Source: Planctomycetota bacterium (lineage in GTDB: Bacteria; Planctomycetota; UBA1135; UBA2386). Taken from it: a DNA stretch of 64,000 nucleotides. Below, piece after piece: positions 25,304 through 62,761 of this stretch. The stretch spans positions 4,800,001 through 4,864,000 of the forward strand of contig OZ245006.1 in assembly GCA_965223545.1 (NCBI GenBank), in the 5' to 3' direction. Below the pieces are notes generated by a model, which saw only the letters and a list, made by a program, of their open reading frames with translations, did no database searches and was not told the origin of the DNA. The number at the start of each line of letters is the position of its first letter. Position 1 is the first letter of the stretch. The position numbers and the translations under genes were made by a program.

Positions 25304-26200
25304 TCATTTTCGGGCGTCGAGCTCAGCGCGCACCGATCGGTACACGATCTCCTGGAAGCGATCGGGCTTCATGAACCCCGTGCCCCACGTCGCGTCCCAC
25401 TCGGCCGTGGGCTTTGCCGCCCGCACCTCGTCCAAGGTCTTGCCGTCGCGCACCAGATCGGCGAACCGCGCGTGGATCGTGCCCAGGACCTCGCGGTACT
25501 GCCGCAGCCCATCGCGGTCGGTCAGCTTGCCGTGGCCGGGAATGATCGCCGTCTCGCCGTCGGCGATCTCGAGCACGCGGTCGACGGCGGCGATCAGTCC
25601 GTGCAGAGTGCCCCCGCTGTCGAGATCGATGTAGGGAAAGGCGCCGTTGAAGAACACGTCGCCCATGTGGATCACGTTGCCGCGCCGAAACCACACGATC
25701 GCGTCCCCGTCGGTGTGCGCCGCCGAGACGTGGAAGATCTGCACGTCGTCGCCGTTGAGGTGCAGGGTCACGCCTCCCGCGAACGTCACCACGGGCAGCG
25801 CCTTGCTGTCGCCCGCCGCCCGCTCCCCGCCCTCGGCCAGCTGCTGCGCGGACATGCGCTTGCGCACGTTTTCATGCGCGACGATGACCGCGCCCGCGCG
25901 CCCGAACCGCTCGTTGCCGCCGGTGTGGTCGCCGTGGTGGTGCGTGTTGATCACGAACCGGATCGTAGTGTCCGTCAGCCGGGCAACCGCGGCGCGGATC
26001 TGCGGCACCATCGGCGCGAACTGGTCGTCGATCAAGAACGTCCCGTCCTCGCCGTAGCAGACACCGATGTTGCCGCCGCGCCCCTCGAGCATCGCCACCC
26101 CGTCCCGGATCGGCACGGTGTGAATCCGCGCGTCCCCCTGCGCGACCAACGGAGCGCACACGACCATCGCGACAGCCAGACAACTCGCAGAATGGAACAT
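25304..26200 (-). CDS. MBL-fold metallo-hydrolase (cyclase-like)
   Basis: Signal peptide, NTHHHGDHTGGN, AHTDGD, HMGD, IPGHG. Confidence 0.9.
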   Translation of the reverse strand: MFHSASCLAVAMVVCAPLVAQGDARIHTVPIRDGVAMLEGRGGNIGVCYGEDGTFLIDDQFAPMVPQIRAAVARLTDTTIRFVINTHHHGDHTGGNERFGRAGAVIVAHENVRKRMSAQQLAEGGERAAGDSKALPVVTFAGGVTLHLNGDDVQIFHVSAAHTDGDAIVWFRRGNVIHMGDVFFNGAFPYIDLDSGGTLHGLIAAVDRVLEIADGETAIIPGHGKLTDRDGLRQYREVLGTIHARFADLVRDGKTLDEVRAAKPTAEWDATWGTGFMKPDRFQEIVYRSVRAELDARK

Positions 26201-26299
26201 CCCCGAAGCCTACCGAAAGTACGGAGCCAGTCCTGCCCCGGCAGATTTGTCGGCCCTTCAGGGCAGGAAACTAGCCGCTGAGGAAGGGGGAGGGGAACG

Positions 26300-26464
26300 T
26301 GTGAGGGGCCCGGCAGCTACGCCCCCAATAGCCACTGGAGCACGTTTGCCCCAGAGCCAGTCTGGGTCCGAGTTGGCCATCCTTCACTGGTGAGGGGCAC
26401 GTCGCCGTGCCCACTCCCGCAGGTCAGATTCGTTTGATCGCCGCCTCGGGCCGGGCCCACCACA
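26300..26464 (+). ncRNA. Candidate IS110 bridge RNA (copy 1; limits approximate)
   Basis: Closing stem GGGCCCGGC 26306-14 / GCCGGGCCC 26450-58; hairpins CCCAGA-GCCAG-TCTGGG and GGGCACG-TCGC-CGTGCCC; exact junction matches GAGCCAGTC 26354-62 and CAGGTCAG 26420-27. Confidence 0.7.
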
Positions 26465-26480
26465 ACAATGAGGATGAAGT

Positions 26481-27863
26481 ATGGCTGGGAAGAGCAGAAC
26501 GAGGAAGGGCAAGAAGCCCGCAGCGGAAGTATTGCCAGTCGTGAAGCCCAACGCCGCCGGAATCGACATCGGCAGCCGCGAGCACTGGGTGTGCGCAGCA
26601 GCACCCGACGGCAGTCGTCCGATCAAGCGATTCGGAACGACGACGCCCCAGCTAGAGGCGCTCGCGGACTGGCTGGAGGAGCTCGGAGTGCGATCCGTCG
26701 CGATGGAGAGCACCTATGTCTACTGGATTCCCGTCTACGAGCTACTCGAGTCGAGAGGCTTCGAGGTCATCCTCGCGAATGCCCGCGAGGTGAAGAACGT
26801 GCCGGGCCGCTCCAAGTCCGATGCCAGCGATTGCAGTTGGCTGCAGAAGCTACACACCTATGGCCTCATTCGCGCTTCGTTCCGGCCTCCGAAGGACATC
26901 TGTGCGTTGCGGACCCTGCAACGCCATGCCGCGTCTTTGATCGCGCAGCGCACGCGCCACACGCAGTTGATGCAGCGGTCACTGGATCAGATGAACGTGG
27001 CGATCCATCGCGCGGTAACGGACATCACCGGCAAGACCGGCCTCGCGATCATCCGCGCGATTCTCGCTGGTGAACGCGACCCTCGAGCGCTCGCCAGACT
27101 GCGTGATCCGCGCTGCAAGATCTCCGAGAAGGAGCTCGCGGATCACTTGCAAGGGACCTGGATCGAGGAGCACATCTTCACTCTCGCTTCGGGCTTGCGG
27201 ATGCTCGAGCACACCGACCACGAGATCGAGTCGGTCGAGAAGCGATTGATGGCGATGATCGAGGACCTGCAACCGGAGGAAGCCAAGACGGCCGACGTCC
27301 CCGAGCATCCAGACCCCCGCAAGGAGAGGAGCATCCGAACGAAGGGCGGCCGGGAGCTTCGCGATGCCCTCTGCCGGCTCGTCGGGTGTGATCTCACGCG
27401 AATCGACGGTATCAGCCCGAGCACGGCCATGATCGTGCTCACCGAGGTCGGCTACGACCTCGAAGCTTTCCCGACCGAGAAGCACTTCGTCTCCTGGCTA
27501 CGCCTGTGCCCACGTCAAGCCGTCTCGGGTGGAAAGCGCATCAAGAAGCACCGCAACAACATCGCGGTCAGCAGGATCGCCACGGTCCTCCGGATGGCCG
27601 CCCTGTCCCTCCAACGTACTCAGACAGCTCTCGGCGCACACTTCCGCAAGATCGCCCGCGCGAAGGACGGCAACGTCGCCATCTTTGCCATCGCCCGCAA
27701 ACTGGCCCTGCTCATCTACCGCATGCTGAAGTTCGGCCAGGACTACGTAGACGAAGGCGCCAAGGCCTACGAGGAGCGCTTCACCCAGCGACGCATCGTC
27801 GGACTCCGACAGAACGCTAAATCCCTCGGGTACAAGCTCATACCGATCGCCGAGGCTGGGTGA
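26481..27863 (+). CDS. IS110-family transposase/recombinase (DEDD + Transposase_20), 460 aa
   Basis: GIDIG (D), AMESTYVYW (E), KSDASD (D..D); C-terminal IDGISP..EVG..F.TEKHFVSWLRLCP...SGGK with the catalytic Ser. Confidence 0.96.
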   Translation: MAGKSRTRKGKKPAAEVLPVVKPNAAGIDIGSREHWVCAAAPDGSRPIKRFGTTTPQLEALADWLEELGVRSVAMESTYVYWIPVYELLESRGFEVILANAREVKNVPGRSKSDASDCSWLQKLHTYGLIRASFRPPKDICALRTLQRHAASLIAQRTRHTQLMQRSLDQMNVAIHRAVTDITGKTGLAIIRAILAGERDPRALARLRDPRCKISEKELADHLQGTWIEEHIFTLASGLRMLEHTDHEIESVEKRLMAMIEDLQPEEAKTADVPEHPDPRKERSIRTKGGRELRDALCRLVGCDLTRIDGISPSTAMIVLTEVGYDLEAFPTEKHFVSWLRLCPRQAVSGGKRIKKHRNNIAVSRIATVLRMAALSLQRTQTALGAHFRKIARAKDGNVAIFAIARKLALLIYRMLKFGQDYVDEGAKAYEERFTQRRIVGLRQNAKSLGYKLIPIAEAG

Positions 27864-27871
27864 GTTTCAGG

Positions 27872-28018
27872 TCAGCAGACACCGATGTTGCCGCCGCGCC
27901 CCTCGAGCATCGCCACCCCGTCCCGGATCGGCACGGTGTGAATCCGCGCGTCCCCCTGCGCGACCAACGGAGCGCACACGACCATCGCGACAGCCAGACA
28001 ACTCGCAGAATGGAACAT
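27872..28018 (-). pseudogene. Duplicated 5' fragment (48 codons) of the MBL-fold gene
   Basis: 27874-28048 is identical to 26056-26230; reads MFHSASCL...GNIGVC, then a TGA created by the IS right end. Confidence 0.85.
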
Positions 28019-28048
28019 CCCCGAAGCCTACCGAAAGTACGGAGCCAG
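27874..28048. repeat. Direct duplicate of host segment 26056-26230 between IS copies 1 and 2
   Basis: Exact repeat at offset 1818; begins and ends with AG. Confidence 0.93.
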
Positions 28049-28117
28049 TCCTGCCCCGGCAGATTTGTCGGCCCTTCAGGGCAGGAAACTAGCCGCTGAG
28101 GAAGGGGGAGGGGAACG

Positions 28118-28282
28118 TGTGAGGGGCCCGGCAGCTACGCCCCCAATAGCCACTGGAGCACGTTTGCCCCAGAGCCAGTCTGGGTCCGAGTTGGCCATCC
28201 TTCACTGGTGAGGGGCACGTCGCCGTGCCCACTCCCGCAGGTCAGATTCGTTTGATCGCCGCCTCGGGCCGGGCCCACCACA
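28118..28282 (+). ncRNA. Candidate IS110 bridge RNA (copy 2)
   Basis: Same sequence as 26300-26464. Confidence 0.7.
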
Positions 28283-28298
28283 ACAATGAGGATGAAGT

Positions 28299-29681
28299 AT
28301 GGCTGGGAAGAGCAGAACGAGGAAGGGCAAGAAGCCCGCAGCGGAAGTATTGCCAGTCGTGAAGCCCAACGCCGCCGGAATCGACATCGGCAGCCGCGAG
28401 CACTGGGTGTGCGCAGCAGCACCCGACGGCAGTCGTCCGATCAAGCGATTCGGAACGACGACGCCCCAGCTAGAGGCGCTCGCGGACTGGCTGGAGGAGC
28501 TCGGAGTGCGATCCGTCGCGATGGAGAGCACCTATGTCTACTGGATTCCCGTCTACGAGCTACTCGAGTCGAGAGGCTTCGAGGTCATCCTCGCGAATGC
28601 CCGCGAGGTGAAGAACGTGCCGGGCCGCTCCAAGTCCGATGCCAGCGATTGCAGTTGGCTGCAGAAGCTACACACCTATGGCCTCATTCGCGCTTCGTTC
28701 CGGCCTCCGAAGGACATCTGTGCGTTGCGGACCCTGCAACGCCATGCCGCGTCTTTGATCGCGCAGCGCACGCGCCACACGCAGTTGATGCAGCGGTCAC
28801 TGGATCAGATGAACGTGGCGATCCATCGCGCGGTAACGGACATCACCGGCAAGACCGGCCTCGCGATCATCCGCGCGATTCTCGCTGGTGAACGCGACCC
28901 TCGAGCGCTCGCCAGACTGCGTGATCCGCGCTGCAAGATCTCCGAGAAGGAGCTCGCGGATCACTTGCAAGGGACCTGGATCGAGGAGCACATCTTCACT
29001 CTCGCTTCGGGCTTGCGGATGCTCGAGCACACCGACCACGAGATCGAGTCGGTCGAGAAGCGATTGATGGCGATGATCGAGGACCTGCAACCGGAGGAAG
29101 CCAAGACGGCCGACGTCCCCGAGCATCCAGACCCCCGCAAGGAGAGGAGCATCCGAACGAAGGGCGGCCGGGAGCTTCGCGATGCCCTCTGCCGGCTCGT
29201 CGGGTGTGATCTCACGCGAATCGACGGTATCAGCCCGAGCACGGCCATGATCGTGCTCACCGAGGTCGGCTACGACCTCGAAGCTTTCCCGACCGAGAAG
29301 CACTTCGTCTCCTGGCTACGCCTGTGCCCACGTCAAGCCGTCTCGGGTGGAAAGCGCATCAAGAAGCACCGCAACAACATCGCGGTCAGCAGGATCGCCA
29401 CGGTCCTCCGGATGGCCGCCCTGTCCCTCCAACGTACTCAGACAGCTCTCGGCGCACACTTCCGCAAGATCGCCCGCGCGAAGGACGGCAACGTCGCCAT
29501 CTTTGCCATCGCCCGCAAACTGGCCCTGCTCATCTACCGCATGCTGAAGTTCGGCCAGGACTACGTAGACGAAGGCGCCAAGGCCTACGAGGAGCGCTTC
29601 ACCCAGCGACGCATCGTCGGACTCCGACAGAACGCTAAATCCCTCGGGTACAAGCTCATACCGATCGCCGAGGCTGGGTGA
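28299..29681 (+). CDS. IS110-family transposase/recombinase
   Basis: Translation identical to 26481..27863. Confidence 0.96.
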   Translation: MAGKSRTRKGKKPAAEVLPVVKPNAAGIDIGSREHWVCAAAPDGSRPIKRFGTTTPQLEALADWLEELGVRSVAMESTYVYWIPVYELLESRGFEVILANAREVKNVPGRSKSDASDCSWLQKLHTYGLIRASFRPPKDICALRTLQRHAASLIAQRTRHTQLMQRSLDQMNVAIHRAVTDITGKTGLAIIRAILAGERDPRALARLRDPRCKISEKELADHLQGTWIEEHIFTLASGLRMLEHTDHEIESVEKRLMAMIEDLQPEEAKTADVPEHPDPRKERSIRTKGGRELRDALCRLVGCDLTRIDGISPSTAMIVLTEVGYDLEAFPTEKHFVSWLRLCPRQAVSGGKRIKKHRNNIAVSRIATVLRMAALSLQRTQTALGAHFRKIARAKDGNVAIFAIARKLALLIYRMLKFGQDYVDEGAKAYEERFTQRRIVGLRQNAKSLGYKLIPIAEAG

Positions 29682-29712
29682 GTTTCAGGTCAGGCTCCGT
29701 TTCATCACCTTG

Positions 29713-30930
29713 CTAGCCGCCGGATCCAAGCAGTTCGGTCAGCGCCGCCGCCAACTCCTCGTACTGGGAGAGGTCGTTGTACAGCTGCGCCGAAATGCGC
29801 AACGCCAGCCGCGGTGGCGCGGGCCACGGAAACACCGGCACCTGGATGCCGAAGTGCTTGGTCAGCGCGTGCCCCAGGGGCTCGACGTGCTGCCAGCTCC
29901 GCGGCCTGCTCGCGGTCGCGCCCGGCAACGGCAGGGTCGCCAGCGAGCCGATCAGCGCCTCTGGCGCCGGCGGCTCGATCTCGAGCGCGGCACAGAGGTG
30001 CGCGCGCGCCGCGAGCGCCAGCGCGCGGTTCTGAGCCCGCACCGCTGGCCAACCGCCGGGCAACAGACCGCCGATGCAGTCGATCGCATCGGGGACCGTC
30101 AGATACGCAGTGGGGTCGTGCGTGCCGGTCCAGTCGAACTCGGCGAGGAAGCGCGACCGGTCCGTCCGCTTGCCGCTGGCGCCGTGGCTGATCACGGTCG
30201 GTCGGACCTGCGCCTGCAGGTCACGCCGCACCCAGAGAAAGCCCGCCCCCTTGGGCGCGCAGATCCACTTGTGGCAGTTGCCGGTGTAGTAGGCGGCTCC
30301 CAGCGCGCGAAGGTCGAGCGCCAGCATGCCCGGGGCGTGCGCCCCGTCGACGAGTGTCTCGACGCCGCGCTCGCGCAACTCGCCGATCAGGATCTCCAGC
30401 GGCAAGACCAGCGCCGTCGGACTGGTGACGTGGTCGAGCAGCGCGAGTCGCGTCCGCTCGTTTGTCGCGGCGAGCACGACGTCGACGATCTCACCTGGGT
30501 CGCGGACTGGAAACGGCAGATCGACCACCGTGATCGTGGCGTCGTGCCGCGCCGCCACCTGGTCGAGCGCGTTGCGACACGCGTTGTAGGCATGGTTGGT
30601 GACCAGCAGGTCGTCGCCGGTCGACAACGGCATCGACTGCAGCACCGCGTTGACGCCCGTCGTGGCGTTGGCGACGAACGCGATGTCTTCGGCGTCGGCG
30701 CCGACGAAGTCGGCCAGCTTCCCGCGTGCTCGATCCAGCGCGGGCTCGAGCGTGTGCAGCATGAAGTGGACCGGCTCGCGCTCGAGCTCGTCACGCCAGC
30801 GCTGCTGCGCGTCGAGCACCTCGCGCGGACACGCACCGAACGAGCCGTGATTGAGGAACGTCACCTCGGGATCGAGGCTCCACAGGCGGCGCAGCCGCGC
30901 CGTCGTCGCGGGATCGAGCAGTGATGTCAC
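29713..30930 (-). CDS. Aminotransferase class V PLP enzyme (isopenicillin N epimerase / cysteine lyase-like)
   Basis: FLNHGSFGACP, NATTGVN, DHVTSPT, VDGAHAPG, GNCHKW. Confidence 0.9.
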   Translation of the reverse strand: MTSLLDPATTARLRRLWSLDPEVTFLNHGSFGACPREVLDAQQRWRDELEREPVHFMLHTLEPALDRARGKLADFVGADAEDIAFVANATTGVNAVLQSMPLSTGDDLLVTNHAYNACRNALDQVAARHDATITVVDLPFPVRDPGEIVDVVLAATNERTRLALLDHVTSPTALVLPLEILIGELRERGVETLVDGAHAPGMLALDLRALGAAYYTGNCHKWICAPKGAGFLWVRRDLQAQVRPTVISHGASGKRTDRSRFLAEFDWTGTHDPTAYLTVPDAIDCIGGLLPGGWPAVRAQNRALALAARAHLCAALEIEPPAPEALIGSLATLPLPGATASRPRSWQHVEPLGHALTKHFGIQVPVFPWPAPPRLALRISAQLYNDLSQYEELAAALTELLGSGG

Positions 30931-40808: not shown

Positions 40809-40836
40809 GTACGGAGCCAGGCTCCGATTCATCACC
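40809..40836 (+). other. Empty IS110 target site GTACGGAGCC-AG-GCTCCGATTCATCACC
   Basis: Matches the reconstructed pre-insertion site of copy 3 (28/28) and of copies 1/2 (27/28); core AG at 40819-40820. Confidence 0.85.
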
Positions 40837-40875
40837 CGGCGCCGCCGGGTGATGAATCGGAGCCTGACCTGAAAC

Positions 40876-42258
40876 TCACCCAGCCTCGGCGATCGGTATG
40901 AGCTTGTACCCGAGGGATTTAGCGTTCTGTCGGAGTCCGACGATGCGTCGCTGGGTGAAGCGCTCCTCGTAGGCCTTGGCGCCTTCGTCTACGTAGTCCT
41001 GGCCGAACTTCAGCATGCGGTAGATGAGCAGGGCCAGTTTGCGGGCGATGGCAAAGATGGCGACGTTGCCGTCCTTCGCGCGGGCGATCTTGCGGAAGTG
41101 TGCGCCGAGAGCTGTCTGAGTACGTTGGAGGGACAGGGCGGCCATCCGGAGGACCGTGGCGATCCTGCTGACCGCGATGTTGTTGCGGTGCTTCTTGATG
41201 CGCTTTCCACCCGAGACGGCTTGACGTGGGCACAGGCGTAGCCAGGAGACGAAGTGCTTCTCGGTCGGGAAAGCTTCGAGGTCGTAGCCGACCTCGGTGA
41301 GCACGATCATGGCCGTGCTCGGGCTGATACCGTCGATTCGCGTGAGATCACACCCGACGAGCCGGCAGAGGGCATCGCGAAGCTCCCGGCCGCCCTTCGT
41401 TCGGATGCTCCTCTCCTTGCGGGGGTCTGGATGCTCGGGGACGTCGGCCGTCTTGGCTTCCTCCGGTTGCAGGTCCTCGATCATCGCCATCAATCGCTTC
41501 TCGACCGACTCGATCTCGTGGTCGGTGTGCTCGAGCATCCGCAAGCCCGAAGCGAGAGTGAAGATGTGCTCCTCGATCCAGGTCCCTTGCAAGTGATCCG
41601 CGAGCTCCTTCTCGGAGATCTTGCAGCGCGGATCACGCAGTCTGGCGAGCGCTCGAGGGTCGCGTTCACCAGCGAGAATCGCGCGGATGATCGCGAGGCC
41701 GGTCTTGCCGGTGATGTCCGTTACCGCGCGATGGATCGCCACGTTCATCTGATCCAGTGACCGCTGCATCAACTGCGTGTGGCGCGTGCGCTGCGCGATC
41801 AAAGACGCGGCATGGCGTTGCAGGGTCCGCAACGCACAGATGTCCTTCGGAGGCCGGAACGAAGCGCGAATGAGGCCATAGGTGTGTAGCTTCTGCAGCC
41901 AACTGCAATCGCTGGCATCGGACTTGGAGCGGCCCGGCACGTTCTTCACCTCGCGGGCATTCGCGAGGATGACCTCGAAGCCTCTCGACTCGAGTAGCTC
42001 GTAGACGGGAATCCAGTAGACATAGGTGCTCTCCATCGCGACGGATCGCACTCCGAGCTCCTCCAGCCAGTCCGCGAGCGCCTCTAGCTGGGGCGTCGTC
42101 GTTCCGAATCGCTTGATCGGACGACTGCCGTCGGGTGCTGCTGCGCACACCCAGTGCTCGCGGCTGCCGATGTCGATTCCGGCGGCGTTGGGCTTCACGA
42201 CTGGCAATACTTCCGCTGCGGGCTTCTTGCCCTTCCTCGTTCTGCTCTTCCCAGCCAT
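40876..42258 (-). CDS. IS110-family transposase/recombinase
   Basis: Translation identical to the other two copies. Confidence 0.96.
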   Translation of the reverse strand: MAGKSRTRKGKKPAAEVLPVVKPNAAGIDIGSREHWVCAAAPDGSRPIKRFGTTTPQLEALADWLEELGVRSVAMESTYVYWIPVYELLESRGFEVILANAREVKNVPGRSKSDASDCSWLQKLHTYGLIRASFRPPKDICALRTLQRHAASLIAQRTRHTQLMQRSLDQMNVAIHRAVTDITGKTGLAIIRAILAGERDPRALARLRDPRCKISEKELADHLQGTWIEEHIFTLASGLRMLEHTDHEIESVEKRLMAMIEDLQPEEAKTADVPEHPDPRKERSIRTKGGRELRDALCRLVGCDLTRIDGISPSTAMIVLTEVGYDLEAFPTEKHFVSWLRLCPRQAVSGGKRIKKHRNNIAVSRIATVLRMAALSLQRTQTALGAHFRKIARAKDGNVAIFAIARKLALLIYRMLKFGQDYVDEGAKAYEERFTQRRIVGLRQNAKSLGYKLIPIAEAG

Positions 42259-42274
42259 ACTTCATCCTCATTGT

Positions 42275-42439
42275 TGTGGTGGGCCCGGCCCGAGGCGGCG
42301 ATCAAACGAATCTGACCTGCGGGAGTGGGCACGGCGACGTGCCCCTCACCAGTGAAGGATGGCCAACTCGGACCCAGACTGGCTCTGGGGCAAACGTGCT
42401 CCAGTGGCTATTGGGGGCGTAGCTGCCGGGCCCCTCACA
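42275..42439 (-). ncRNA. Candidate IS110 bridge RNA (copy 3)
   Basis: Reverse complement of 26300-26464. Confidence 0.7.
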
Positions 42440-42574
42440 CGTTCCCCTCCCCCTTCCTCAGCGGCTAGTTTCCTGCCCTGAAGGGCCGACAAATCTGCCG
42501 GGGCAGGACTGGCTCCGTACGTGCGCCGAGAAAACGAACCGGACTCCGTTCGTCACGCGCCAGGAACTCTCCGT

Positions 42575-60881: not shown

Positions 60882-60990
60882 GGGTCAAGAAGCTTGGTCG
60901 AAACCGGCGGCGCGTGCCAAACGCGGAGTCTCACTTCGAGACGGGGCGCGGCTGCAGGCCCGATGTCACTGGGTCGCCGGCTCCATCCGT

Positions 60991-61589
60991 TCAGCGCGGC
61001 CACGGCCGCAACCAAACTCGGATGCCGCTTTTTCCCGGAGCGGCTTGGAAGGTCCGACCCATCCGCCGCCGCGCTGAGCGCAGACGCCAGTGTTGTCCTC
61101 GAGCCTCCGGGAGCTGCGTTGTCGAAGTTCCAGCGACAACGAGCCTTCCGAAAGGTTGTCGCCGCGCGAAGATTTGCGGACCCTGAGGCTCAGCGCGGCC
61201 ACGACCGCAACCAAATTCGGATGCCGCTCTCGCCGGAACGGTTTGGAAGGCCGGACCCATCCGCCGCCGCGCTGAGCCAGGAGGCACTGTCTCTCCGAGC
61301 CTCCGGCGCCGCGGCGACGTTGCCATGGCAGCGGCGTCGCCTCGAGAATGTTGTCGCCGCTCGACGATTCGTGGCGCCGGAGGCTCAGCGCGGCCGAGGC
61401 CGCAACCAAACACGGAGCATTCCGCGTCCCGAGCGTCGGTCGCGGGTCCCGCGGTCGCCGGCGGCCGCGCTGAGCCCAGAGGCCAGTGTTGTCTTCGAGC
61501 CTCCGGGAGTTGCGGTATCGAAGTCCCGGCGACGACGGGCCTTCCGAAAGGTTGTTGCCGCTCGAACGTTCTCGGACCCTGAGGCTCAG
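60991..61589. repeat. Three ~198-bp tandem units with nested inverted repeats
   Basis: Units start TCAGCGCGGCC.(c/a)G.CCGCAACCAAA at 60991, 61190 and 61385 (next TCAG at 61586); each has TCAGCGCGGC/GCCGCGCTGA and GAGCCTC/GAGGCTC inverted repeats. Confidence 0.88.
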
Positions 61590-62761
61590 AACAGCCCTAC
61601 GCAGCTCGCGTTCGAGAGGAGCCCCTGCCCCGTCGAGGCATCGATCACCAGTGCCTGCACGCTCAGGATCTCTTCGCGGGGAAAGAGCGTCGAGCTGATC
61701 GGCACGTCGATCTGCACGGGTTGGCCAGCCGACACCGGCCCCGCGAACAGCACGGCGTGGTTCGCCTCGATCCAGAGCGGGCCCAGCTGGGTCCAGCGCA
61801 GCGGTCCGGGAACGCTGGTCACGACGATGGCGTTGCCGGTGGCGTGCGGCCACAGGGTGTTGTTCATCGTGTTGCCGAGAGAGGCGCCGTTGCTGACCAG
61901 TGCTGGAAACGCCAGTGGAATTTGCACCGCATACTGCACGATGCCGATGGGCACGGTCGGGTTTCTCACCAGAATGGTGTTTCCAGTGGCGACGATGGCC
62001 GGTTCGAACAGCGTAGGCACGCACGGCCGCAACAAGCCACACGACAGTCCTGCCCGAATGCTGCGTGCCCCGCTACCGGTGACGAGGACGATGCTCGCGT
62101 CGAGCATCATGGCCGATTCTTCAGTGCCGAGTGTGCCATTGTGTCCGAACACGTCGGTCTCGCTGATCGCGATGAAGCTGTTGCGAGCCTTGAAGCCGAT
62201 CGTGTTCGAGAAGCCGTTGGCGATCGCCTGCAGGGAGCAGTTGGTGATGTGGACTTCGCTCCCGTCGATGTCGATGGGCCAGATGTCCGTGATCGCGCTC
62301 GAGTTGAGGCTCACCCATTTGCTGTTTCGGATGCTCACCACCGGCCCGTTGATAAAGAACAGTGTCGGCCCGCGCAGGTGACTCAGGCGATCGATCACGA
62401 CCTGGCCGTCGCAGTCGGCGACGGCGAGAACTTTCATCGCCAAGGGTGTTGCTCCTGTGCCCAGGCCGACGATCGAGAATCGTTCGGTGGCCGGAAGTCC
62501 AACGATGCGGACTGTCTGACCGGAACCAAGCCGAACACCCGGTTCGCATTGCACGTTGATGCCGGCGCTCGTGGTCGCGCCGCTGTAGGTGCCGGTGCGA
62601 ACCAGGATCTTGTCGCCGCTGGTCGCCGCCGCGAACGCGGGCGGGAGGTCGGTGAAGGCGGCGCCCGGCCCGCCGGCGGCATCCACGATCCAGGTGGTTT
62701 GCGCGCTCAGCGGCGCGGAGAGCGCCACGGTGATGGCCGTGGGGACCAGAAACCACTGCAT
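61586..62761 (-). CDS. Secreted hypothetical protein (paralog of 31014..32213) with shared C-terminal module
   Basis: LSAQTTWIVDAAGGPGAAFTDLPPA..GD.ILVRTGTY; C-terminus SVQALVID..LSNA. Confidence 0.8.
   Translation of the reverse strand: MQWFLVPTAITVALSAPLSAQTTWIVDAAGGPGAAFTDLPPAFAAATSGDKILVRTGTYSGATTSAGINVQCEPGVRLGSGQTVRIVGLPATERFSIVGLGTGATPLAMKVLAVADCDGQVVIDRLSHLRGPTLFFINGPVVSIRNSKWVSLNSSAITDIWPIDIDGSEVHITNCSLQAIANGFSNTIGFKARNSFIAISETDVFGHNGTLGTEESAMMLDASIVLVTGSGARSIRAGLSCGLLRPCVPTLFEPAIVATGNTILVRNPTVPIGIVQYAVQIPLAFPALVSNGASLGNTMNNTLWPHATGNAIVVTSVPGPLRWTQLGPLWIEANHAVLFAGPVSAGQPVQIDVPISSTLFPREEILSVQALVIDASTGQGLLSNASCVGLF

What the first reader, a model, noticed from the sequence alone, without database searches (positions are those of the whole stretch)
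26056..29693. Tandem duplication of IS110 plus 173 bp of host DNA, joined exactly at an AG core
Seen: 26056-27875 repeats at 27874-29693 (period 1818 = 1645-bp IS + 173 bp host). The novel joint fuses the precise IS right end (CAGGTC-AG) to an AG inside the MBL-fold gene (GCCGT-AG-CAGACACC). The only microhomology is AG, which fixes the core at 2 nt rather than CAG. This secondary site otherwise does not resemble the target. Inference: one-ended or off-target recombination by the IS110 enzyme captured adjacent host DNA (start codon region and 48 codons including the signal peptide), either via a circle that re-integrated or via sister-chromosome exchange. That would be a natural route to flank mobilisation and amplification, and a real off-target event for a bridge recombinase.
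Basis: partly seen in the sequence, partly recalled or inferred. Interest (0 to 1): 0.74.

Follow-up and report, generated by a model that had tools for sequence, protein, structure and literature searches.

The report
Jumping gene duplicated with neighbouring DNA
An RNA-guided jumping gene seems to have joined its right end to the wrong spot 173 bases beyond its left end, copying itself and a scrap of a host gene side by side; this kind of slip was described recently, and this is a clean natural example whose presence in living cells is not yet confirmed.

Summary
The repeat is exact (1820 nt, period 1818: a 1645-nt IS110 plus 173 nt of host DNA). Of 23 full copies in the genome, 22 right ends run into a REP palindrome; only this one is fused to an unrelated site, sharing just AG. 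The same signature (right end joined to an upstream AG, overlap exactly AG) turned up at 2 of 88 right ends of relatives in other records (1 of 1320 controls), and at a second IS110 family in this genome, so the joint is very likely enzyme-made. It is a one-ended strand transfer, not an off-target insertion: no reciprocal joint exists. Relatives fix the core as AG independently. Whether the tandem is chromosomal and common is open: four runs, contigs only, do not show the joint, but they also drop known real variants. Tandem IS110 duplications with left-donor-only boundaries are already in a 2026 preprint, so this is a new member of a known kind. Extra here: the AG is kept at the wrong site, 31-35-nt units point to sister exchange, and this subfamily shows no right-arm guides.

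The parts
25304..26200 (-). Intact MBL-fold hydrolase gene, 298 aa; not assignable to a beta-lactamase family
   Evidence: ORF; PF00753; below the cut-off of all 25 NCBIfam models shown (of 35 matched)
26056..26057 (+). Secondary AG inside the MBL gene, used as the recombination partner
   Evidence: guide comparison
26058..26230 (+). 173-nt host segment, native copy (MBL codons 1-48, upstream region, left half of REP with AG core)
26219..26230 (+). Left target arm + AG core (GTACGGAGCC-AG), left half of the REP palindrome
   Evidence: 23 left junctions; empty REPs
26231..27875 (+). IS110 copy 1, 1645 nt
26231..26480 (+). Left non-coding end holding the predicted bridge RNA
   Evidence: conserved in relatives; fold z -1.99; expression not tested
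26353..26360 (+). Left target guide AGAGCCAG
   Evidence: changes with the left flank across relatives
26420..26427 (+). Left donor guide CAGGTCAG
   Evidence: changes with the right end across relatives
26481..27863 (+). IS110 recombinase, 460 aa, intact
   Evidence: PF01548 + PF02371; NF033542 248 bits vs cut-off 140; motif positions
27865..27883 (+). Novel joint: left-donor arm TTTCAGGTC + AG + CAGACACC
   Evidence: 1 of 23 right ends
27876..28048 (+). Second copy of the 173-nt host segment
27872..28018 (-). 48-codon MBL stub closed by TGA at the joint
28049..29693 (+). IS110 copy 2 (recombinase 28299-29681), canonical at both ends
29694..29709 (+). Right half of the REP target (GCTCCGTTTCATCACC)
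29713..30930 (-). Class V aminotransferase gene, right neighbour
40864..42508 (-). Third identical IS110 copy in one REP of a REP pair; the partner REP at 40810-40826 is empty

Best explanation
The bridge-RNA-guided recombinase bound the element's right end through its left donor guide, cut the top strand after AG, and transferred that end not to the element's own left junction but to a bare AG 173 nt further upstream. Done between newly replicated sisters (or through a 1818-nt circle that recombined back by homology), and completed by replication or repair, this gives the head-to-tail duplication of 173 nt + IS. The event is recent (0 differences), probably neutral (MBL gene intact, stub of 48 codons) and probably unstable. 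Shown: anatomy, guides by covariation, recurrence of the signature. Inferred: the chemistry (from IS621 and CazIS110-1), the sister route, chromosomal state.
For: Joint lies exactly at the AG, although the repeat shared by the other 22 copies runs at least 5 nt further (GCTCC 22 of 23), so it is not a repeat boundary. Same signature in other records: L102 (35-nt unit, partner CCAGT-AG; relative L150 has one unit) and L132 (31-nt unit, partner GCCTG-AG, units differ at 1 base; the other copy in L132 and L135 have one unit): 2 of 88 distinct right-end motifs vs 1 of 1320 random AG positions, and that control had no overlap (Fisher p 0.011). AG occurs at 4.9% of positions, yet all three overlaps are exactly AG. 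Of 22 tandem repeats with period of 60 or more in C1, the two that are complete and exact both end at an IS110 right end: this one and a 183-nt unit of another IS110 family, again with AG overlap. Literature: left-donor-only boundaries at tandem units (10.64898/2026.08.14.744561); target-independent excision (10.64898/2026.08.31.748434); top-strand LD-to-new-site transfer and tandem repeats in 3 of 96 colonies (10.1101/2025.10.25.684509); ISPpu9 mutants recombine at outside AGs and take flanks along (PMC12288879).
Against: No contig of four runs shows the joint; the MBL-side contig runs unbroken through 27874-28062 in 4 of 4, which is what a rare or absent joint gives (but see the control in Tried and rejected). 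The partner site has no half-match beyond the core, whereas the in vitro half-match work used a core plus one arm. The host element is otherwise strict: 22 of 22 other right junctions are REP although only 86 of 1959 GAGCCAG sites go on with GCTCC. CazIS110-1 tandems reverted under induction, so a fixed tandem is not expected. The L132 partner GCCTGAG matches that element's left flank GGCTCAG at 5 of 7, so that case may be a degenerate match. The second-family case is in the same assembly and its core could be AG or CC.
Confidence: 0.68

Rival explanations
1. The joint is enzyme-made but sits on an extrachromosomal 1818-nt circle or a few rare molecules, which the assembler laid into the chromosome as a tandem.
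For: Joint absent from contigs of 4 of 4 runs; copies 100% identical; partial and over-long circles with one donor boundary are documented; L121 is a head-to-tail contig whose joint has 3 extra nt.
Against: A minority loop is usually dropped from a consensus (general knowledge, not tested). Hu et al. report that circles mostly reuse the other (RD-side) end while LD-only joints mark tandems. The 31- and 35-nt units in relatives are too short to loop out as double-stranded DNA (recalled bending limit), so tandems of this type form without circles.
Confidence: 0.17
2. Host-made duplication (replication slippage or illegitimate joining) that happens to end at the IS end, perhaps helped by a nick left there by the recombinase.
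For: Only 2 nt of overlap are needed; short duplications without the AG signature occur around occupied and empty REPs in this genome.
Against: Exact end plus AG in this case, two other records and a second family; a random end would fall on the core in about 3 of 1818 positions.
Confidence: 0.08
3. Pure artefact: chimeric read or misassembly with no molecule behind it.
For: No support in contigs; the element has 23 copies; raw reads could not be examined.
Against: Graph mis-joins fall at the shared repeat edge, 5 or more nt beyond the core, and join another copy's flank; here the partner is unique DNA at an AG. The assembly holds no exact kilobase tandem with random ends (22 examined).
Confidence: 0.07

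Closest known systems
Tandem expansion of IS110 loci with LD-only boundaries (Hu et al., bioRxiv 10.64898/2026.08.14.744561; read parts 1-4 of 7 and passages)
   Same: Tandem duplication of whole modules (n = 437) and non-coding units (n = 468); unit boundaries keep the left-donor match only; authors speculate that LD-initiated reactions are resolved in place and duplicate the segment.
   Different: In the parts read, the unit is not described as IS plus upstream host gene DNA, and retention of the core dinucleotide at the unmatched site is not reported. Supplements (Figs S5-S10) are closed and may hold such cases.
Half-match recombination by IS621 (Xie et al., bioRxiv 10.64898/2026.08.31.748434; read parts 1-3 of 6)
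   Same: Excision needs no target match; single-strand transfer; off-target sites sit at the core dinucleotide.
   Different: Their half-match partner has core plus one arm and the product is an insertion; here the partner has the core only and the product is a one-sided duplication. Core CT there, AG here.
ISPpu9 of Pseudomonas putida (PMC12288879; passages and Discussion part 1 of 2)
   Same: IS110, AG core, REP target, MITE partners; end mutants form circles at outside AGs that carry flanks.
   Different: There both ends moved outward, in mutants, at two identical engineered sites; here a wild-type right end pairs with an unrelated AG. Protein relatedness to ISPpu9 was not tested.
CazIS110-1 copy-out and direct transfer (bioRxiv 10.1101/2025.10.25.684509; read parts 1-3 of 5)
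   Same: Top-strand-only transfer of LD to a new right partner; tandem repeats as by-products (3 of 96).
   Different: Those tandems have the normal LD-RD joint and no host DNA, and they reverted.
ISPpu10 segmental amplifications (bioRxiv 10.64898/2026.03.19.712850; read part 1 of 8)
   Same: REP-targeting IS110 at the edges of amplified host DNA; target hairpin adds specificity.
   Different: Edges there are two canonical REP insertions; no ectopic joint.

Membership tests
IS110 family bridge recombinase element | One ORF with DEDD_Tnp_IS110 and Transposase_20 domains | tested here: met
IS110 family bridge recombinase element | Catalytic D-E-D-D and serine | tested here: met
   D29, E76, D114, D117, S349 by motif position; motifs recalled, IS621 residues
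IS110 family bridge recombinase element | No target duplication; one shared core dinucleotide | tested here: met
   empty GTACGGAGCC-AG-GCTCC (79 exact) vs 23 occupied junctions
IS110 family bridge recombinase element | Non-coding end with left target and left donor guides | tested here: met
   91 of 95 and 90 of 90 positions in 21 of 24 ends parsed; arms were found by the guide, so partly circular; four rows are copies of near-identical elements; L018's arm was misplaced
IS110 family bridge recombinase element | Right target and right donor guides pairing beyond the core | tested here: inconclusive
   25 of 108 and 33 of 114 positions at the inferred strand, i.e. chance; guide position is my inference; right flanks vary freely within four relatives and in G041, but are fixed in the host element
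IS110 family bridge recombinase element | Bridge RNA expressed; circle with LD-RD joint | not testable with these tools
   only contigs were served; no circle joint listed
LD-only tandem expansion (Hu et al. 2026) | Adjacent same-strand repeat, 95% identity or more, unit 50 nt or more | tested here: met
   100%, 1818 nt
LD-only tandem expansion (Hu et al. 2026) | Boundary matches LD and not RD | tested here: met
LD-only tandem expansion (Hu et al. 2026) | Support by long reads | tested here: inconclusive
   contigs only
Half-match off-target insertion (Xie et al. 2026) | Partner matches core plus one arm, and the element is inserted with two new joints | tested here: not met
   1 of 6 arm positions for either guide; all 23 left ends follow the normal left target

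The most novel reading that the evidence does not exclude
This AG-core, about 460-aa IS110 subfamily reads only the two left arms by RNA pairing; its guide-bound right end can be transferred to any nearby upstream AG on the sister chromosome with no arm match at all ('core-only' recombination). That yields duplications from 31 nt to 1.8 kb, and here builds an IS-host-IS unit that could leave as a 3463-nt circle with a normal donor joint and host DNA inside: the first step of cargo capture, caught at base resolution.
Probability: 0.35. Interest if true: 0.65.

Novelty: new member of a known kind. Interest (0 to 1): 0.42.

Why it matters
Bridge recombinases are being developed as genome editors and are proposed to grow into cargo carriers. 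Hu et al. only speculate on how left-donor-only tandems form. This locus and its look-alikes give exact substrates to test that: a wild-type right end, a partner with nothing but the core, and unit lengths that separate sister exchange from circle re-entry. If core-only transfer is general, editors left in a genome could duplicate DNA beside their own insertions, an outcome that screens for new insertion sites would miss. For this organism the event looks neutral.

Tried and rejected
Read test: 4 runs, 2 samples, 1 study, all Logan contigs, one possibly the source; laid on 27836-30535. Contigs cover both native junctions; none covers the novel joint, and no skip or go-back joint for it, for an empty site or for a circle is listed; 126 pieces and 47 loose ends were not shown. 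Depths are whole-contig means (MBL side 5.9, 3.9, 25.8, 4.1; right flank 6.8, 5.1, 33.2, 5.5), so the 2x test could not be made. Control: eight internal substitutions carried by 6 of 23 copies are also missing from the contigs' list of other letters, so these contigs drop real variation beside this repeat; that the assembler removes short low-depth links next to a deep repeat is recalled, not tested. Result: inconclusive. Empty orthologous site: none among 40 relatives; best MBL matches were 66-69% identical. Close relatives of the element: best 78% (L011 = G068), so no second copy of this locus. Hairpin or guide match at the partner site: none. Core CAG: rejected, since left-target and left-donor arms differ at that base in L013, L019, L020, L102, L128, L131, L150, L153. 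Resistance cargo: rejected, MBL-fold protein is below the cut-offs shown and only 48 codons are copied. Short duplications at other copies (C1:1015082, 4330732, 2159176) lack the LD-AG joint and similar ones flank empty REPs, so they were not counted. L141 (normal LD-RD joint of a MITE) and L121 (contig edge) were left out of the 2 of 88. One search's guide table failed on a pattern error and was redone. Plasmid search gave no named element (25 of 450 rows seen). Literature searches; none listed a paper on flank-capturing, core-only IS110 joints, but subscription journals and bioRxiv supplements were not searchable. Earlier scan notes: nothing relevant.
Full report
Observation. The window holds an exact direct repeat, 26056-27875 = 27874-29693, 1820 nt with no difference. 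The unit of 1818 nt is 173 nt of host DNA plus a 1645-nt IS110 whose 460-aa recombinase carries both family domains. The genome (8.1 Mb, 2 contigs) has 23 full copies, 17 of one type and 6 of a type with 10 differences. All 23 left ends follow GAGCC-AG; 22 right ends go on with GCTCC and one, window copy 1, with CAGAC. The normal target is a REP palindrome, GTACGGAGCC-AG-GCTCC, with 79 exact empty matches. The odd joint fuses the exact right end to an AG inside the MBL-fold gene, 173 nt upstream of the left end. It leaves the gene intact and makes a 48-codon stub that stops at the joint.

Guides and core. Aligning the left non-coding ends of relatives shows two short segments that change with the DNA arms: 26353-26360 with the left target and 26420-26427 with the element's right end (left donor, LD). 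In 21 of 24 ends parsed the match was 91 of 95 and 90 of 90 positions; the arms were located by the guides, so the numbers are partly circular, one arm (L018) was misplaced, and four rows are near-identical elements. Left targets end in CAG, TAG, AAG or GAG while left donors end in CAG or TAG, so AG is the only shared part: the core is AG, independent of the odd joint. The strands facing these guides carry a conserved C/T-T that could pair with AG, but match the right arms no better than chance (25 of 108, 33 of 114). Right flanks are free in relatives: 8, 5, 4 and 3 different hexamers behind four shared right ends, and 3 of 3 different in G041. The host element is the exception, REP-only, which may reflect a hairpin gate as reported for ISPpu10 or a guide I could not place.

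Is the joint enzyme-made? The partner site matches neither guide (1 of 6 each) and is no hairpin. Three lines point to the enzyme. First, the joint lies on the core, not at the edge of the repeat shared by the copies, which is at least 5 nt further out. Second, the signature recurs: among 88 distinct right-end motifs with enough flank in other records, L102 (35-nt unit) and L132 (31-nt unit) are tandem duplications in which LD-AG is joined to an upstream AG with overlap of exactly AG; related copies have a single unit. One of 1320 random AG positions passed the same filter, without overlap (p 0.011). L121 shows a head-to-tail joint with three extra bases, TAG, as if an AG three bases early was used; its flank is not in the contig and it was not counted. 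Third, of 22 tandem repeats with period 60 or more in C1, the only two that are complete and exact are this one and a 183-nt unit at the right end of a different IS110 family, again joined at an upstream AG; that family's core is not settled and the case shares the assembly.

Is it in cells? Not settled. Four runs of one study hold the locus, all as contigs. They show both native junctions, an unbroken contig through the start of the 173-nt segment, and no piece across the joint. They also omit eight substitutions that 6 of 23 copies carry, so absence is weak evidence. A fixed tandem, a subpopulation and a 1818-nt circle all remain possible.

Mechanism. IS621 cuts top strands 3' of the core and joins the free 3' end to a phosphoserine-linked partner. 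Excision needs no target match and moves one strand; CazIS110-1 transfers LD directly to a new right partner and leaves tandem by-products in 3 of 96 colonies, which reverted. I infer that the LD-bound complex, seeking the element's left junction, took an AG 173 nt too far out (14 AGs lie in the 300 nt upstream). No reciprocal joint exists, so this is not an insertion. Transfer to the sister copy followed by replication gives the tandem directly; a circle re-entering by homology gives the same sequence. The 31- and 35-nt units favour the sister route, since such short double-stranded loops are unlikely (recalled). The 1818-nt unit has no LD-RD joint and cannot insert normally; the whole IS-173-IS block could excise with a normal joint, which would be the real path to moving host DNA. 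The 173 nt are found nowhere else in the genome, so this has not been seen.

Comparison. Hu et al. 2026 report hundreds of tandem IS110 expansions whose boundaries keep almost only LD matches and propose in-place resolution. ISPpu9, also AG-core and REP-targeting, forms flank-carrying circles at outside AGs when its ends are mutated. The finding is therefore a new member of a known kind. What I did not find in the parts read or in five searches is the retention of the core at the unmatched site, capture of an upstream host gene start by a wild-type element, or a subfamily without right-arm guides; bioRxiv supplements were closed and may bear on this.

Verdict. Observation confirmed; one-ended recombinase event likely (0.68 as a chromosomal tandem in at least some cells, 0.85 counting the circle); class known; interest 0.42.

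Noticed in passing
G000:C1:7063615-7063982 (L217): Exact 183-nt tandem duplication of the downstream non-coding end of a second IS110 family (4 copies), joined at an internal AG; the other three copies have one unit. This copy is cut at its 5' end by another multicopy element.
   Followed up: partly
G000:C1:3912823-3917194: A 333-aa Y1_Tnp (RAYT-like) gene sits between two inverted REPs, both occupied by this IS110; probably the source of the GTAC-type REP family.
   Followed up: partly
G000:C1:1714945-1718295: Two IS copies of different type in the two REPs of one REP pair, a few dozen bases apart, the second inserted in the reverse-reading REP variant.
   Followed up: no
G000:C1:988112-988240 (L218): Remnant with 114 nt of the recombinase start fused to the last 18 nt of the right end, followed by CTGCCCC rather than GCTCC.
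   Followed up: no
G000:C1:1015082, 4330732, 2159176, 4241114, 5305962: 15-40-nt tandem duplications of REP arms at occupied and empty REPs; the one at 1015082 is present in contigs of two runs.
   Followed up: partly
window 60990-61620: Array of a 195-201-nt repeat family that is the target of two other IS110 families in this genome (11 and 4 copies).
   Followed up: partly
L092, L105, L111, L137, L140, L141; L114, L132, L135; L091, L118, L146: Short non-autonomous elements with this subfamily's ends and freely varying right flanks; L141 has a partial head-to-tail dimer.
   Followed up: partly
G000:C1:6350407, period 2305: Near-exact tandem of another multicopy element with a 488-aa ORF; not identified.
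   Followed up: no
L016 / L165: The sequence after the recombinase ends in the left-target motif rather than the element's left donor guide match.
   Followed up: no
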